Positions 43,821-62,976 of a DNA stretch of 64,000 nt are shown here, piece by piece. Both the position numbers and the translations under genes were made by a program. The first letter of the stretch is position 1. Every line of letters starts with the position of its first letter. The stretch spans positions 1 to 64,000 of IMG/VR virus record IMGVR_UViG_3300005253_000144. The stretch is one strand, 5' to 3'. This DNA is from a virus. Below the pieces are notes generated by a model. That model did no database searches, was not told the DNA's origin, and worked only from the letters and a program-made list of their open reading frames with translations.

Positions 43821-43852
43821 AAAAAAGGCCTCCCGGATTTCGGGAGGCCTTT
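43821..43852. terminator. Intrinsic terminator between convergent genes
   Basis: AAAAAAGGCCTCCCG-gattt-CGGGAGGCCTTT; a second hairpin lies at 43747-43783. Confidence 0.85.
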
Positions 43853-46403: not shown

Positions 46404-46775
46404 CTAAGAAATAGGCATTTGTGTAGCACCTAAATTATAAGCCAATCCCAATTCTTTTGGTAGTTGAGTATATGTTTCCGCGGATAGCCAATCTTTGGGA
46501 TGGGTGTTTCCCTTTGAATTATTGCATTCATGACAAGCGGGGACTAAGTTTTCCAATGCTTCAACTCCGCCCAGGATTTTCGGGATGAAGTGGTCAACAG
46601 TAAAAGCGGTAGGGTTTTTCATTCGCGGTTTTCCAAAATTCAGCTTTCTCCAACAATAGATACAGTTACCCTGTGTTTTTCCTAATATGCAAGCGCGCAA
46701 ATTTATATCGATTGTTATCCAATAACCTTGTACTTTAACCCTAGGATTTTTGAAGCCGCCTAAAATACGTTTCAT
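46404..46775 (-). CDS. HNH endonuclease
   Basis: 'CIYC', 'TVDHFIP', 'NLVPACHECNNSKG'. Confidence 0.9.
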   Translation of the reverse strand: MKRILGGFKNPRVKVQGYWITIDINLRACILGKTQGNCIYCWRKLNFGKPRMKNPTAFTVDHFIPKILGGVEALENLVPACHECNNSKGNTHPKDWLSAETYTQLPKELGLAYNLGATQMPIS

Positions 46776-47530
46776 TTGCGGTTCACTAATTTTATTAATT
46801 CATATAGACAGCCGCTTGAGGGAATTTCAGGGTCAGGCGGCGGGTCTACCGGAGGCACATCTTGAACTTTTAGATAGCTATCCCAATCCCATAGGAAGTC
46901 GTTCCTATCCAATGTATGACCTGCTGTTTTATCCCAAGGGCTGAATTGATGGGCAACAACATCTTCCAGAACATAGCCTCTAGGGATACCAAAGCGTGCA
47001 AAGTTTATGCCATAATACGCCGCCCATAAAGGATGCCGGAGGATTGAGATGGGGATATTTCTTGGCAATTCATAATCCCACCACCATTTCCCGGTATAGT
47101 TCCAGATAAATTCTTCGTCCCACCACTTTCTTGCCTCTGCGAAAGCATCCACCAGCATATGCAGGCGCGCTAATTTACTAATATGTGCTATCTGCCGGGG
47201 ATGCTGTTCCACGTCTATCGCATAAATATCCTCGTCTTTGTGGTCTCCAATATGGTCGATACCAAGTTTTACTTGCTGCGCAGGACTGAGACCGCCTGAA
47301 AGATTAGCGTCAAATGTAATAAATGTTGTTGCACCGCGTAGCTCAAACATGTTTGCGGCAGTCCAATTATTTTCAAATTGTGAATCAATATGCCCCCTAT
47401 AGTCAGGCGCCATAAAATAGCCGTCTGATACTTTACACATCGCCCCCTTGACCCCGGCATCTCTAAGCCTATTCCAGGGAAGAACTCCATTATGATGCGA
47501 AACATCGATGAAATCCATTACTGGAGCCAT
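46772..47530 (-). CDS. GH25 muramidase (endolysin)
   Basis: 'IDVSHHNG', 'KVSDG', 'IDVE', 'LWAAYY', 'HQFS', 'LDRN'. Confidence 0.85.
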   Translation of the reverse strand: MAPVMDFIDVSHHNGVLPWNRLRDAGVKGAMCKVSDGYFMAPDYRGHIDSQFENNWTAANMFELRGATTFITFDANLSGGLSPAQQVKLGIDHIGDHKDEDIYAIDVEQHPRQIAHISKLARLHMLVDAFAEARKWWDEEFIWNYTGKWWWDYELPRNIPISILRHPLWAAYYGINFARFGIPRGYVLEDVVAHQFSPWDKTAGHTLDRNDFLWDWDSYLKVQDVPPVDPPPDPEIPSSGCLYELIKLVNRK

Positions 47531-47645
47531 GTCTTTTCTCCTGTTTGTCTGATGGTCTATGCTTTTCTTCTACTTTATCACAGATTTATTCCATTAGTCA
47601 ATAAGCTGAAGCGGTAAATGTTAATGTGCATTTGGATTTTTAATC

Positions 47646-47943
47646 AAAAAACCCCGCAAATAATTGGGCGGTTAGCGTCAAGCATTTACGCTATACTCCA
47701 GGGCCTACTCCGCTTAAGCATCCGTATATCTGGCGGTCTTCCTTTAGCGTAATCTCTTGATTGGTTGGCTCTGTTTGCAGAGATTTCTCAACTAGGGTGC
47801 AATTATTCACCTAGCCTTCTTCTCACTATACCCCAGAAGCGGTTTTTCTCCTTGGTTTGAGTCTAGCGCGCCTAGCTCGGTATAGCGGCATCCACATCTC
47901 AGCTTGTTTTATAGCCAATCGCCCAATTAGTTACGGGATTTTT
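47646..47943 (-). ncRNA. ~300 nt structured non-coding RNA of unknown family
   Basis: No plausible gene here; 5' and 3' ends pair over ~30 bp with G-U wobbles only on the minus strand; nested helices; ends in a U run. Confidence 0.65.
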
Positions 47944-47973
47944 CGGTTTTTAAGGTTCACTTCTTTTCTTAGG

Positions 47974-48118
47974 ATTGAATATTTTCTTAGGCCGACAGGA
48001 CTTGCACCTGTGACCTCCGTGCTTTTGGCAACGGTGCTCTATCAGCGCTACTTACTTGGCCGGGAGCGACCCATTCTTTCGGCACCTATCTGAGCTACAG
48101 CCTAAGAAAATATTCAAT
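47974..48118 (-). ncRNA. tRNA-like RNA with extended acceptor stem, D-loop insertion and non-canonical anticodon arm
   Basis: TAGCTCAG..AGAGC D-arm, AGGTC variable loop, ACAGG-TGCAAGT-CCTGT T-arm, flanked by a 19 bp perfect inverted repeat. Confidence 0.7.
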
Positions 48119-48142
48119 TATTAATTTTCTGAATTCCATGTA

Positions 48143-48171
48143 ATATTACCATTTGCGCTATAATTTGTCAA
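48143..48171 (-). promoter_or_regulatory. Near-consensus sigma70 promoter upstream of the ncRNA unit
   Basis: TTGACA-N17-TAATAT with TG extension. Confidence 0.8.
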
Positions 48172-48192
48172 GTGTTTTATATCAGATATATA

Positions 48193-49770
48193 TCAGAAAA
48201 GATTCTGCTGGATACCTAAACTCAACCAATAATCTAGCCGCGCTTTAGCAATGTCAATGTATGCCCGTAAAAATTCTACACCAACTATGCATTCCCAGCC
48301 TGCCTGGAACGCGCCTATCATTTCGCTACCAGTTCCCGCAAATGGCACGAAAATACGGCGTGGGGCATATTCATCTGGTGGGAGTAGCAGAGTTGCTAAG
48401 TGTTTGATTAGGGCAATCGTTTTTATGGTGGGGTGTACATTGCGCTTACAGGGTTCATCCTCTCCCTTGTCATTTATATGATGGGTGCTGTGTAGGTCCC
48501 CGCATTTGGCGCAGGGGATGTGATGGATTAATCCTTTCTCGCGCTCAACATTTCCGGTCTTTGCCATATATTTGAAGGCCGCTTCCTGTTCTAGCTTTTC
48601 GTATACATAATCAGCGTTGAAAAAGAATTGTGACGCGCCGCCAGAGTCGCCATAGGTATCCTGCAAAGTCGGTCTATCGCGGTCTCCTTTGTGCCAACCC
48701 CAGTTTTTAGCATTGTGTTCGGGAGTCATCAGTCCACTTTTCAAATGCCCGCTCTGCCTATCCAGTTCTCTTGCCGGACATCCTTCAACGCATTCCCAGA
48801 CCGCACTTTCACCGCCAACTTCCTCGCCTTCGTAATCTTCGCCGACCGCGTCTCCGAACGGTTTTGCGCCGTCTGTAAATCGGTTGATAATATAGCCGTC
48901 CGGGGAAGTGCCAATGCGCTTGCAGTCTGGGGAATGTTGGATTATGAAGTTGGCTGGCCAGCGGCCAGAGGAACCACCCCATTCCTTTTCTTTCTCTGTT
49001 TCCGCCCACCCATAAATGTGAGACGGCCCGCTCCCGGTCGGTCCTACTGGTTTTCCAATCCTCCCCCCATCAATATTCAACGCCCCCGCCCCCGTGCGCG
49101 TGATGTCGTCTACCGGTCTACCTTTCTCTGTGTACGGTTTCTGGAATACGATTATCGGCTCAAGTGCGGGCTTTTGAGCTTGCAGTCCGTAGCGGTGACC
49201 TTCCCAGGTTTTGGCTAGGTCGGTGGTAGCCTGTTCTCTATAATTGGTGTGTCTACCATCAAATATACTATTCTCTTGAATATCTTGTGTTTGTCTAGTA
49301 CCACCATCTCTATATCGGTCATACCATTCTGATTCTCTCTCTGCCCCCGCCGCCTTATCAATCTGCGTATCAATCCGAGTAGCTTTCGGAAATCCACTCC
49401 CATAAACCCAACCCATCATCGGGTGGATAATATAACCACTGTCCTCAATCGCAACCGCCATCCGGTGTGCTGTTCTACTGCCGCCGAATGTCATACAAAA
49501 TGCGCCGGGATATAGTAAGTCCCAAAAGGCGCGCCATGTTTCTGGTCGGAATGCCACATCGCCTCCGTCCCATTCCTGTGACATAAAACCGCGGGATACC
49601 CGCTGAAATGCACCATCGCTCCCAAACTGAGCAGGTGCCGCGCCATCTTTTCCAAAACGTTTGGTGATACTGGTTAGATGATAGGGAGGGTCCGCGAGGA
49701 GTGCGTGAAAAGGCGCACCATCATAATGTTTAGCAAAACGTATTACATCACCATTTAATATTCTATTCAC
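48193..49770 (-). CDS. DNA methyltransferase (N6-A/N4-C, beta class)
   Basis: 'ADPPY', 'WVYGSGFPK', 'HPTIK', 'PFAGTGS'. Confidence 0.9.
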   Translation of the reverse strand: MNRILNGDVIRFAKHYDGAPFHALLADPPYHLTSITKRFGKDGAAPAQFGSDGAFQRVSRGFMSQEWDGGDVAFRPETWRAFWDLLYPGAFCMTFGGSRTAHRMAVAIEDSGYIIHPMMGWVYGSGFPKATRIDTQIDKAAGAERESEWYDRYRDGGTRQTQDIQENSIFDGRHTNYREQATTDLAKTWEGHRYGLQAQKPALEPIIVFQKPYTEKGRPVDDITRTGAGALNIDGGRIGKPVGPTGSGPSHIYGWAETEKEKEWGGSSGRWPANFIIQHSPDCKRIGTSPDGYIINRFTDGAKPFGDAVGEDYEGEEVGGESAVWECVEGCPARELDRQSGHLKSGLMTPEHNAKNWGWHKGDRDRPTLQDTYGDSGGASQFFFNADYVYEKLEQEAAFKYMAKTGNVEREKGLIHHIPCAKCGDLHSTHHINDKGEDEPCKRNVHPTIKTIALIKHLATLLLPPDEYAPRRIFVPFAGTGSEMIGAFQAGWECIVGVEFLRAYIDIAKARLDYWLSLGIQQNLF

Positions 49771-50356
49771 GCTCTGCCCTTTGTAATTTTATTTCTCTGA
49801 TACGATGACATCTGGGGCATACAGTTATAAGATTTTTAATCTGGTTTGCTTTTGAATAATCATTAAATTTCCTAGAAGGAACGATATGATGTACATGTAA
49901 TGAGTGCCCTATATTTTCCAGACACTCACTTTCCGTTATTAAACAATCTTGACATGTATTATTATCTCGGTTTTTTACGGCTCTACGCTGTGCATACCAG
50001 TTTGCTCCGTGATGATTTATACCATTTCCATGAATAAACTGTGGATGATTTTTACCAATTCGGTATTCATCTCTGCATGGCCTAGAGCAATATTTTCCCG
50101 CCCCTTTATGTTGTTCAAGTTTGCTTTTGGCTATTACAAAGTTCTTTCCACAATTTAAACATTGTTTTTTGGCTAACCTAAGATGTGGTCTTGCTTTAAT
50201 TGCAGCGTACTGGCAATCTTTTGAACAATGTTTACCGCGGCCATGTTTGATACGTGAAGGATTCCTACTAAATATTTTTCCACAACATTCACATATGAAG
50301 TCCATTTTATTATTATAAGATAAATCATGGGACGAGGCAATTGAAATACATAGCAA
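49763..50356 (-). CDS. HNH endonuclease with Zn-ribbon repeats
   Basis: CECCGK..HCSKDC repeats; 'RDNNTCQDC...HVHH...NLITVCPRCH'; likely start ~50305. Confidence 0.85.
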   Translation of the reverse strand: MLCISIASSHDLSYNNKMDFICECCGKIFSRNPSRIKHGRGKHCSKDCQYAAIKARPHLRLAKKQCLNCGKNFVIAKSKLEQHKGAGKYCSRPCRDEYRIGKNHPQFIHGNGINHHGANWYAQRRAVKNRDNNTCQDCLITESECLENIGHSLHVHHIVPSRKFNDYSKANQIKNLITVCPRCHRIREIKLQRAERE

Positions 50357-62325: not shown

Positions 62326-62976
62326 TTACTTGGGAAAATCCTTATGCTTAATCTTGGTAATTATGCGGTTGCCGCGCCGATTAAGTAATTCAACTTCAGG
62401 GCGCATCACCATTCCTTCTGCTTGGAAGTCCCCCCAGCGGGACATAAATCCATTCCTGGTTTGCTCCACAGCAGTATACAAATTGCCTTGGCCGATAATA
62501 GGCGTAATTTGCAACCCCAGTTTTTCTGCGACGTCTTCAACGTTTTCGCGTTCTAAGAACATTTCACCGACCTTTACATCAAAGAGGCAAAAGTCAACAC
62601 CATCAGAAATGTAATTCCCGCCGCCTTTTTGAATCCGTGCCCCAAACCCTTCGCCGTAGAGACAAACACCAGTGTCATAATCAAAGGCATTCTGTACGTT
62701 TTCCAAAGTGAACACCTCTTGTAATTTGCTTTCCAGGAACGGTGGTATCTGTGCTTTATCGGTCTTACCGCCAAATCGTATTCCTTCAGCATCATACATT
62801 ACTCGAATGTTAGTGCCGTCTACCTTTTCGGTAAATACCCAATTGTTGCTTTTGAGATAGTCGAATTCAGGATGTGCAAATTCGTCTAACAATGTCTTGT
62901 AATTATTAGTTGGGTCTCGCTTGTAAACTGTTGTGATTTTATGATATGGGTACATCGGGTATTTGCGGTCGGGCAT
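62326..62976 (-). CDS. ATP-dependent RNA ligase (Rnl2-like adenylation domain)
   Basis: Motif I 'TEKVDGTN', III 'LYGEG', IIIa 'FCLFDV', IV 'EGMVMRP', V 'KIKHKDF'. Confidence 0.85.
   Translation of the reverse strand: MPDRKYPMYPYHKITTVYKRDPTNNYKTLLDEFAHPEFDYLKSNNWVFTEKVDGTNIRVMYDAEGIRFGGKTDKAQIPPFLESKLQEVFTLENVQNAFDYDTGVCLYGEGFGARIQKGGGNYISDGVDFCLFDVKVGEMFLERENVEDVAEKLGLQITPIIGQGNLYTAVEQTRNGFMSRWGDFQAEGMVMRPEVELLNRRGNRIITKIKHKDFPK

What the first reader, a model, noticed from the sequence alone, without database searches (positions are those of the whole stretch)
47646..47943. Unclassified ~300 nt multi-helix ncRNA directly downstream of the tRNA mimic
The 5' end AAAAAUCCCGUAACUAAUUGGGCGAUUGGC pairs with the 3' end GCUAACCGCCCAAUUAUUUGCGGGGUUUUU. 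Several differences are G-U wobbles on the minus strand only, which points to selection on RNA structure. Nested helices: AAGC/GCUU, CGCUAUAC/GUAUAGCG, CCGCUU/AAGCGG. Hairpins: GAGCUAG..CUAGACUC, CUAGGUG..CACCCUAG, CUCUG-CAAA-CAGAG. I recognise no RNase P, tmRNA, SRP or 6S signature. It is probably co-transcribed with the tRNA-like RNA, recalling tRNA-linked large phage RNAs such as GOLLD and ROOL.
Basis: partly seen in the sequence, partly recalled or inferred. Interest (0 to 1): 0.75.

Follow-up and report, generated by a model that had tools for sequence, protein, structure and literature searches.

The report
Orphan folded RNA candidate in phage
A 300-base non-coding stretch of an uncultured marine-sediment phage is closed by a real 30-base-pair helix and sits between a promoter and a run of U, so it is probably the tail of a non-coding transcript, but it matches no known RNA family, no relative could be found, and its inner fold is only weakly supported.

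Summary
The sequence features are real. On the minus strand, 47945-47914 pairs with 47676-47645 (26 Watson-Crick pairs, 4 G-U, 2 mismatches) and ends in U6. The unit lies in a 662-bp ORF-free gap of a 102-kb phage. Upstream are a strong sigma-70 promoter, one of a five-member phage promoter family, and a closed tRNA mimic. Downstream is the endolysin gene.

Most of the folding signal comes from the closing stem: z is -5.1 with it and -1.97 for the inner 237 nt. The inner helices reuse four copies of a near-palindromic (G/C)UAUA(G/C) motif that also marks the promoter spacers.

Rfam gives nothing. A covariance model and BLAST found no homologue in about 180 related viral records or loci, about 550 Chloroflexota genomes, GenBank phages or plasmids. 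So covariation could not be tested, and no RNA data exist.

Best reading (about 0.4): it is the terminator-closed 3' module of an orphan phage non-coding transcript. Rivals are a bare terminator or insulator, a DNA-level site cluster, and a mobile-element remnant. The same stretch was noted earlier in this scan; that follow-up is withheld. Interest is modest.

The parts
48143..48171 (-). Sigma-70-type promoter: TTGACA, 17 nt, TG-n-TAATAT (extended -10). It is a member of a phage promoter family whose spacers share TATAGCG.
   Evidence: 10 of 12 matches, TG present; the same cTTGACA-N3/4-TATAGCG-N7-TG-n-TAtAAT layout occurs at 73614(-), 82720(-) and 84515(+), and with TATAGCA at 82852(+).
47974..48118 (-). 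Closed tRNA mimic, the upstream module of the same transcription unit and the subject of a separate finding.
   Evidence: Perfect 19-bp inverted repeat (I2). Fold z = -5.08. ARAGORN and Rfam are negative. Its T-arm is 96% identical over 24 nt to tRNAs of Chloroflexota genomes.
47914..47945 (-). 5' strand of the closing helix P1 (RNA positions 4-35, counting 47948 as position 1).
   Evidence: pair probability 0.89-0.99, I1.
47645..47676 (-). 3' strand of the closing helix P1 (RNA positions 273-304). It includes the U6 run at 47651-47646, which gives a terminator-like end.
   Evidence: The simple terminator scan does not call it, because the 'loop' is 237 nt.
47824..47887 (-). Branch A. CGCUAUACC (47887-47879) pairs with GGUAUAGUG (47832-47824). 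It encloses the hairpin GAGCUAG/CUAGACUC (47878-47859) and a small hairpin AGGAG/CUUCU.
Evidence: probability 0.99 in the ensemble.
47790..47816 (-). Hairpin B: GGCUAGGUG / CACCCUAGUU.
   Evidence: probability about 0.75.
47769..47782 (-). Hairpin C: CUCUG-CAAA-CAGAG.
   Evidence: probability 0.56.
47678..47760 (-). Branch D. UCAAG..UUACGCUA (47760-47745) pairs with UAGCGUAA..CUUGA (47693-47678) and encloses a poorly defined 51-nt loop.
Evidence: probability 0.67-0.69, I6.
47683..47695 (-). 13-mer TATAGCGTAAATG. It equals the promoter spacer sequence TATAGCGCAAATG (48162-48150) with one mismatch.
   Evidence: D3; it is the only match with one mismatch or fewer in the 64-kb window. TATAG[CT]G occurs three times in the element and once in the promoter, the only such cluster in the genome.
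47572..47601 (-). Weaker promoter-like site (TTGACT, 18 nt, TAAAGT, with TG) between the U-run and the endolysin start.
46772..47530 (-). GH25 endolysin gene, the first gene downstream. The lysis and structural genes follow on the same strand.
48193..49770 (-). DNA methyltransferase-like gene, the last gene upstream.
   Evidence: phrog_67, E = 9e-16.

Best explanation
The element is the 3' module of a two-module non-coding transcription unit of about 490 nt on the minus strand of a 102-kb phage, probably of Chloroflexota. A phage-family sigma-70 promoter (48171-48143) would start an RNA that first forms the closed tRNA mimic (48118-47974) and then this module of about 300 nt.

The 5' and 3' ends of the module zip into a 30-bp helix that runs straight into U6. 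That helix would end transcription and protect the 3' end. Like the 21-bp stem of the tRNA mimic, it is long enough to be an RNase III-type processing stem that would separate the two modules.

The helix encloses about 240 nt that form four short branches. I take the product to be a stable, phage-specific structured RNA of a new family. It would belong to this phage's unusually rich set of tRNA-like and structured RNAs, which sits beside RNA-repair enzymes (RtcB and an RNA ligase). The likeliest role is as a protein-binding scaffold or decoy.

What is shown: the sequence anatomy, the promoter family, the stem with its U-run, the absence of an ORF, and the absence of any known family. What is inferred: transcription, termination, processing, stability and any trans-acting role.
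For: - ORF-free gap of 662 bp. The only ORFs in it have no Pfam match.
- The promoter scores 10/12 with an extended -10. It shares a spacer motif with four other intergenic promoters of the phage, one of which heads the DUF7873/YrlA-like/tRNA operon.
- The closing helix has 30 bp at probability 0.89 or higher and is followed by U6. Its arms are 35 nt long and 80% complementary.
- The minus strand folds 13.5 kcal/mol better than the plus strand.
- The phage uses compact canonical terminators elsewhere on the same strand, at 43826 and 27071. A 240-nt 'loop' is therefore not needed just to terminate.
- The inner part shows a modest excess of perfect helices of 7 bp or more (4 against 0.83 expected) and z = -1.97.
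- The same phage carries other structured RNAs: a YrlA-like permuted tRNA mimic inside an 811-nt stretch with z = -12. It also carries RtcB and an RNA ligase.
Against: - No homologue was found, so there is no covariation evidence.
- Most of the thermodynamic signal is the closing stem alone. The inner z of -1.97 is borderline, the MFE has a frequency of 0.0003, and two topologies tie.
- The inner helices are built from repeated copies of a motif that also marks promoter spacers. These could be DNA-level sites that merely mimic RNA helices.
- A relative whose endolysin is 52% identical has only a 200-bp gap upstream of that gene and no such element.
- The G-U asymmetry is not significant.
Confidence: 0.4

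Rival explanations
1. The element is only a cis-acting terminator or insulator. The long inverted repeat with its U-run marks the end of the early/RNA-repair region and shields the lysis and structural genes from read-through, possibly with regulated read-through in the manner of lambda PR'-tR'. The interior would have no function of its own.
For: - The element sits exactly at the boundary. Upstream are methyltransferases, HNH genes, small unknown ORFs, an RNA ligase and RtcB. Downstream are the endolysin, the terminase, the portal and the tail genes, all on the same strand.
- The stem runs into U6.
- A separate promoter-like site precedes the endolysin gene.
- The inner fold is weak.
Against: - The phage's other terminators are compact hairpins of 8-10 bp.
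- A stem that closes only after 240 nt have been transcribed is a poor design for termination.
- The promoter is of the same family as the tRNA-operon promoter, not a unique late promoter.
- No antiterminator was identified, and none was searched for exhaustively.
Confidence: 0.25
2. The element is a DNA-level feature: a cluster of binding sites for a factor that recognises TATAG(C/T)G, the motif in the spacers of the phage's promoter family. Sites in opposite orientations would automatically look like RNA helices.
For: - TATAG[CT]G occurs three times in the element and once in the adjacent promoter. This is the only cluster of three or more in the 102-kb genome, which holds 23 copies in all.
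- GTATAG/CTATAC occurs three times in 195 bp, against 31 copies in the whole genome.
- The 13-mer at 47683-47695 equals the promoter spacer with one mismatch, the only such match in 64 kb.
- The inner helices all use these copies.
Against: - No such factor is known, and the promoter motif may simply reflect common descent of the promoters.
- The counts are not independent, because a helix implies two copies.
- The 30-bp closing stem with its U-run and hairpins B and C do not contain the motif.
Confidence: 0.15
3. The element is a remnant of a small non-autonomous mobile element (MITE-like) with 35-bp terminal inverted repeats, inserted between the tRNA mimic and the endolysin gene.
For: - It has imperfect terminal inverted repeats of 35 nt, and its size of about 300 bp is typical of MITEs.
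- A 7-nt TTTTTAA lies just outside both arms (D4).
- A relative with a 52%-identical endolysin lacks the element.
Against: - It is single-copy in the phage.
- No copy was found in 401 Chloroflexota genomes, in 164 genomes searched with the covariance model, in GenBank phages or in plasmids.
- No IMG/VR contig has the same arm cores at this spacing.
- The flanking direct repeat is AT-rich, not flush with the arms, and is expected next to A and U tracts.
- The inner part of the arms, not the tips, is best conserved.
Confidence: 0.08
4. The element is a highly diverged member of a known structured RNA class, for example a minimal RNase P-like RNA. The order P1 / P2 / P3 hairpin / long-range CCGCUU-AAGCGG resembles P1-P4 of RNase P RNA.
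For: A tRNA-like potential substrate lies immediately upstream.
Against: - No RNase P, group I intron, tmRNA, 6S, SRP, GOLLD, ROOL, HEARO or YrlA model scores at E <= 10 on 331-751 nt with lax filters.
- That topology is 10 kcal/mol worse than the MFE.
- No CR-I or CR-V consensus is visible.
Confidence: 0.03

Closest known systems
Small stable RNAs of unknown function encoded next to tRNA genes in large lytic phages (T4 species 1 and 2 RNAs; T5 stable RNAs).
   Same: Phage-encoded, non-coding, transcribed together with tRNA or tRNA-like genes, with base-paired 5' and 3' ends, and of unknown function.
   Different: About 300 nt rather than about 120-140 nt. It has no tRNA-like end, no sequence similarity, and a 30-bp closing helix that doubles as a terminator.
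Second Y RNAs (YrlB, Yrn2), which are co-transcribed with a tRNA-like Y RNA and processed from one precursor (Chen et al. 2014, PMC4201824).
   Same: A tRNA-mimicking RNA and a second RNA with a long stem formed by its own ends lie in one transcription unit. The phage also has RtcB and a YrlA-like RNA elsewhere.
   Different: About three times larger and multi-branched, not a long hairpin. The 5' region reads ACCGAAAA and does not fit the Ro-binding motif GNCGAAN0-1G. There is no Ro60/Rsr (TROVE) gene in the phage, and the YrlA model does not match here.
GOLLD and ROOL, large non-coding RNAs of phages and prophages.
   Same: Phage context and adjacency to tRNA-type genes.
   Different: Neither Rfam model matches at any threshold tried. 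The element is half their size or less, and there is no conserved family behind it.
Lambda PR'-tR' leader ('6S RNA' of lambda), a short terminated transcript just upstream of the lysis genes.
   Same: A strong constitutive-type promoter, then a few hundred nt of non-coding transcript, a terminator, and then lysis and late genes on the same strand.
   Different: There is no Q-type antiterminator and no qut-like evidence. The promoter belongs to a multi-member family that also drives the tRNA operon. The transcript contains a tRNA mimic.
RNase III processing stems, as in T7 early transcripts and rRNA precursors.
   Same: Each module of the transcript is enclosed by 20 or more base pairs of near-perfect duplex.
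   Different: No cleavage data exist. The phage has no RNase III gene of its own, so a host enzyme would be needed.

Membership tests
Any Rfam 15 family (including RNase P A/B/archaeal/T, tmRNA, SRP, 6S, group I intron, GOLLD, ROOL, HEARO, OLE, raiA, YrlA, self-cleaving ribozymes) | Score at or above the family's gathering threshold with its covariance model | tested here: not met
   whole window, 0 matches. E <= 10 on 751 nt and 331 nt gave only fstAT (17 bits, E = 4) and mir-216 (14 bits, E = 7.8), which is noise.
GOLLD / ROOL | Size of about 500-800 nt with the conserved multi-domain architecture | tested here: not met
   The element is 307 nt from 47948 to 47642.
GOLLD / ROOL | Frequent adjacency to tRNA genes in phages or prophages | tested here: met
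   A tRNA-derived mimic ends 25 nt upstream. This feature is not specific.
Intrinsic (Rho-independent) terminator | A G+C-rich stem immediately followed by a U-run | tested here: met
   CCCG/CGGGG at the base of P1 is followed by U6 at 47651-47646.
Intrinsic (Rho-independent) terminator | A compact hairpin with a loop of a few nucleotides | tested here: not met
   The arms are 237 nt apart, so the scan does not call it. The phage's other terminators are compact.
MITE / non-autonomous transposon | Terminal inverted repeats | tested here: met
   Arms of 35 nt, 80% complementary (I1).
MITE / non-autonomous transposon | Multiple copies in a genome or across genomes | tested here: not met
   Single-copy in the phage. 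No copy was found.
MITE / non-autonomous transposon | Target-site duplication flush with the repeats | tested here: inconclusive
   TTTTTAA lies near both ends but is offset by 1-3 nt and is AT-rich (D4).
Bacterial Y RNA (YrlA / YrlB / Yrn) | The motif GNCGAAN0-1G near the 5' end, in the Ro-binding stem (PMC4201824) | tested here: not met
   The 5' region reads AACCGAAAAAUCCCG: there is no G at the first motif position and no closing G.
Bacterial Y RNA (YrlA / YrlB / Yrn) | Encoded near a Ro60/Rsr (TROVE) gene | tested here: not met
   No TROVE match in the 102-kb phage record. The host genome is unknown.
RNase P RNA | The P4 helix with the conserved CR-I and CR-V sequences | tested here: not met
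   No RNase P model matches at E <= 10. The only P4-like pairing is 6 bp (CCGCUU/AAGCGG), in a topology 10 kcal/mol above the MFE.
Conserved structured ncRNA (generic criterion) | Compensatory base changes among homologues | not testable with these tools
   No homologue could be retrieved.

The most novel reading that the evidence does not exclude
The element founds a new class of phage structured RNA that is made together with a closed tRNA mimic from a dedicated 'RNA regulon' promoter. It would work with the phage's RNA-repair enzymes (RtcB, RNA ligase) or against host tRNA- or RNA-targeting defences, for example as a decoy or scaffold released by cleavage of its long closing stem.
Probability: 0.2. 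Interest if true: 0.65.

Novelty: new variant of a known kind. Interest (0 to 1): 0.3.

Why it matters
If the RNA is real and stable, it adds a new family to the poorly understood set of phage-encoded structured RNAs made together with tRNA-like genes. Here that set occurs in a phage that also carries two RNA ligases and a YrlA-like RNA. That combination would make the phage a good model for RNA-level conflict between phages and hosts.

As it stands, this is a single-sequence candidate. Its only strong feature is a long inverted repeat with a U-run, and it could equally be a terminator or insulator, or a cluster of DNA sites. Its present value is mainly as a pointer to a locus worth checking once relatives or transcript data are available.

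Tried and rejected
**Known families**
- Rfam at gathering threshold on the window and on a locus copy, and at E <= 10 on 751 nt and 331 nt: nothing.
- ARAGORN tRNA and tmRNA search: nothing in the window.

**Homologue searches**
- blastn against GenBank phages and plasmids: no match.
- Single-protein scans of IMG/VR with the endolysin, the methyltransferase and TerL: no relatives.
- An 18-nt motif scan of IMG/VR gave one chance hit, L002, with no wider similarity.
- An arm-core pattern with a 235-265 nt gap gave 0 hits.
- The endolysin alignment retrieved metagenome and viral loci. The best, L003, has no element upstream.
- The TerL alignment gave 80 viral loci and 67 MAG loci. The DUF7873 alignment gave 78 viral loci.
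- nhmmer and blastn on the loci then held, which did not yet include the MAG and DUF7873 loci: nothing.
- Covariance model R1: only terminator-like fragments in 96 loci, and nothing in 31 viral records, 13 MAGs, 151 Anaerolineae genomes or 50 DUF7873-phage records. The positive control scored 400 bits.
- blastn on 401 Chloroflexota genomes hit only the T-arm of the tRNA mimic, plus one chance 38-nt match.
- No paralogue in the phage.

The contigs of the closest relatives could therefore not be fetched: endolysin 81-85% identical, DUF7873 83%, TerL about 60%.
- Sequencing runs: three DNA runs from one study, which may be the source sample. No RNA holder is listed.
- Laying those contigs showed no variants.

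**Other ideas tested**
- Retron, integrase/attP, own RNase III and Ro60: no RT, tyrosine integrase, RNase III or TROVE gene in the phage.
- The tmRNA-like tag idea (GCA AAC ... UAC GCU) was rejected, because there is no tRNA-like end, ARAGORN is negative and the tag ending is atypical.
- Hammerhead and GNRA-receptor motifs were checked by eye: none.
- RNA-RNA duplex scan against neighbouring RNAs: uninformative.
- Small ORFs in the gap: no Pfam match.

Full report
**Context**

The window is the first 64 kb of a 102,174-bp IMG/VR virus record, estimated 91% complete. It was assembled from a marine-sediment metagenome: three DNA runs of one study hold the stretch, and these may be the source sample.

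The finding lies in a 662-bp ORF-free gap, 47531-48192. Upstream is a DNA methyltransferase-like gene (48193-49770). Downstream is a GH25 endolysin gene (46772-47530). Both are on the minus strand.

Further downstream on the same strand come an HNH endonuclease, an SLT transglycosylase, the large terminase, the portal and the tail genes. Upstream come another HNH gene, a ClpP-like protease, a second methyltransferase, many small unknown ORFs, an RNA ligase (62326-62976) and RtcB (65362-66462). The element therefore sits at the junction between an early/RNA-metabolism region and the lysis and structural genes.

TerL's nearest prophage-like relatives are in Anaerolineae MAGs (36-42% identity). 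The T-arm of the neighbouring tRNA mimic is 96% identical over 24 nt to tRNAs in Chloroflexota genomes. The host is thus probably a member of Chloroflexota; this is an inference.

The terminal pairing is the outstanding feature. The arms are 35 nt long and 80% complementary, 237 nt apart. In the RNA ensemble they form a 30-bp helix (47945-47914 with 47676-47645) with pair probabilities of 0.89-0.99. It has 26 Watson-Crick pairs, 4 G-U pairs and 2 single mismatches.

The helix runs into U6 (47651-47646). With the A5 on the other side, it looks like the base of an intrinsic terminator.

Four of the arm differences are G-U on the minus strand, but two are A.C there, which would be G-U on the plus strand. 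The better strand evidence is threefold:
- The fold energy is -104.7 kcal/mol on the minus strand against -91.2 on the plus strand.
- All neighbouring genes are oriented on the minus strand.
- A strong minus-strand promoter lies upstream.

**Transcription signals**

A sigma-70-type promoter (TTGACA, 17 nt, TG-n-TAATAT) lies at 48171-48143. It is not an isolated consensus match. Four other intergenic promoters of the phage share the layout cTTGACA-N3/4-TATAGC(G/A)-N7-TG-n-TAtAAT. They lie at 73614(-), 82720(-), 82852(+) and 84515(+). The one at 73614 heads the DUF7873 / YrlA-like RNA / tRNA operon.

Between this promoter and the U-run there is no predicted terminator. The tRNA mimic (48118-47974) and the 300-nt element would therefore be made as one precursor of about 490 nt. 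A weaker promoter-like site (47601-47572) follows the U-run, ahead of the endolysin gene.

**How good is the inner fold?**

The full element gives z = -5.1. Once the closing stem is removed, the inner 237 nt give z = -1.97 on the minus strand, with 6 of 200 shuffles folding as well, and -0.84 on the plus strand.

The MFE has an ensemble frequency of 0.0003, and two different topologies tie at -104.7 kcal/mol.

Perfect helices of 7 bp or more are somewhat over-represented: 4 observed against 0.83 in shuffles. However, they compete for the same strands, because they are built from four copies of a near-palindromic core, (G/C)UAUA(G/C).

The best-supported local elements are these:
- Branch A (47887-47824), with the GAGCUAG/CUAGACUC hairpin, at probability 0.99.
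- Hairpin B (47816-47790), at about 0.75.
- Branch D (47760-47745 with 47693-47678), at about 0.68.

In a genome-wide sliding scan the element is not the most structured stretch. That place belongs to 72.0-72.6 kb.

**An unexpected link to the promoters**

The repeated core is the same motif that marks the promoter spacers. TATAG[CT]G occurs three times in the element and once in the adjacent promoter. This is the only such cluster in the genome, which holds 23 copies in all.

The 13-mer TATAGCGTAAATG (47695-47683) equals the spacer of the upstream promoter with one mismatch. It is the only match with one mismatch or fewer in 64 kb.

Two readings are possible. The similarity may be a relic of common descent or recombination between promoter-bearing intergenic cassettes. 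Alternatively, these may be DNA sites for a factor, in which case the inverted copies would mimic RNA helices. This keeps a DNA-level rival alive.

**Known families**

Rfam 15 gives no match at gathering thresholds. It gives only noise at E <= 10 on 751 nt and on 331 nt. ARAGORN finds no tRNA or tmRNA here.

The element is therefore not a recognisable member of RNase P, tmRNA, SRP, 6S, group I intron, GOLLD, ROOL, HEARO or YrlA, nor a known self-cleaving ribozyme. The phage has no reverse transcriptase, Ro60/TROVE, tyrosine integrase or RNase III gene.

**Search for relatives**

This was the main effort, and it failed.
- The phage has no close relative in IMG/VR or GenBank. The best TerL identities are 51% and 36%.
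- A covariance model of the element (R1) scores 400 bits on its own genome. It found only terminator-like fragments in 96 loci. It found nothing in 31 TerL-related viral records, 13 MAGs, 151 Anaerolineae genomes or 50 DUF7873-carrying phage records.
- blastn, nhmmer and pattern scans were equally empty.
- A metagenomic relative with a 52%-identical endolysin has only 200 bp upstream of that gene and no element.
- Closer relatives exist in ENA and Logan: endolysin 81-85%, DUF7873 83%, TerL about 60%.
- The source-sample contigs show no variants.

Covariation, the test that would decide the matter, could therefore not be made.

**Interpretation**

I favour, at about 0.4, the reading that this is the terminator-closed 3' module of an orphan non-coding transcript. 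The reasons are these:
- It has a bona fide family promoter.
- It has no ORF.
- The phage uses compact terminators elsewhere on the same strand (43826, 27071), so 240 nt between the arms is not needed for termination.
- This phage demonstrably invests in structured and tRNA-like RNAs and in RNA-repair enzymes.

Both modules of the precursor are enclosed by 20 or more base pairs of duplex, the classical shape of RNase III processing stems. Processing is inferred, not shown. A scaffold or decoy role is speculation.

The rivals are:
- A bare terminator or insulator at the early/late boundary (0.25).
- A DNA-level cluster of TATAG(C/T)G sites (0.15).
- A MITE-like remnant (0.08). It has terminal repeats but only a single copy, and nothing like it was found elsewhere.
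- A diverged known ribozyme (0.03).

**Comparison with known systems**

The element works most like the small stable RNAs that large lytic phages encode beside their tRNA genes. It also resembles the 'second' Y RNAs that are co-transcribed with a tRNA-like Y RNA (PMC4201824). It fails the testable membership criteria of the Y RNA family: it has no GNCGAAN0-1G motif, no Ro60 gene nearby and no match to the model. It likewise fails those of GOLLD and ROOL.

The position upstream of the lysis genes recalls the lambda PR'-tR' leader. Nothing else supports that mechanism.

**Verdict**

The closing stem with its U-run and the promoter are real and non-random. The claim of a selected multi-helix RNA is unproven, and the inner fold is ambiguous.

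It is an orphan candidate of modest interest (0.3). If close relatives show compensatory changes, it would become a new phage RNA family linked to a tRNA mimic.

Its follow-up is withheld, and this report is independent of it.

Noticed in passing
G000:C1:71871-72693 (outside the window; locus L175 1371-2193), minus strand: An 823-bp ORF-free gap lies upstream of the tRNA-Pro/Met/Asn cluster, and it is the most structured stretch of the phage. An 811-nt stretch folds at -330.9 kcal/mol with z = -12. It contains a circularly permuted tRNA-like module with YrlA topology (Rfam RF02553: 33 bits, E = 3e-4, below the gathering threshold of 69). It lies just downstream of a DUF7873 (PF25283) gene.
   Followed up: partly
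48143-48171(-) in the window; also 73614(-), 82720(-), 82852(+), 84515(+) in G000: The phage has a family of promoters with a shared extended consensus, cTTGACA-N3/4-TATAGC(G/A)-N7-TG-n-TAtAAT. One member drives the DUF7873/YrlA-like/tRNA operon and another drives the tRNA mimic plus this element.
   Followed up: partly
window 62326-62976(-) and G000:C1:65362-66462(-): The phage encodes two RNA ligases: an Rnl-type ligase (PF09414, E = 3e-19) and RtcB (PF01139, 183 bits). Together with three tRNAs and several tRNA mimics, they form an RNA-repair toolkit.
   Followed up: partly
window 48076-48083(-): The 44-nt insertion in the D-loop of the tRNA mimic contains GCCGAAAG, which fits the Ro-binding motif GNCGAAN0-1G described for bacterial Y RNAs (PMC4201824). 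By chance about 0.24 such matches are expected in 490 nt, and the phage has no Ro60 gene.
   Followed up: no
window 47995-48018(-): The T-arm region of the tRNA mimic is 96% identical over 23-24 nt to tRNA genes in many Chloroflexota genomes. TerL's nearest prophage-like relatives are in Anaerolineae MAGs. Together these point to a Chloroflexota host.
   Followed up: partly
window 46404-46775(-) and 49763-50356(-): Free-standing HNH endonuclease genes overlap the ends of the endolysin and methyltransferase genes that flank the non-coding gap. This is typical of homing-endonuclease insertions in a plastic region.
   Followed up: no
window 48193-49770(-): The 525-aa methyltransferase-like protein aligns to only about 220 profile positions of phrog_67 across its whole length. 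It therefore carries large insertions or an extra domain and has no Pfam match.
   Followed up: no
window 47848-47856(-) versus 47533-47541(-): The element contains AGGAGAAAA, identical to the Shine-Dalgarno region of the endolysin gene (AGGAGAAAAGACAUG), but no start codon follows it. It may be a coincidence or a ribosome-binding-site mimic.
   Followed up: no
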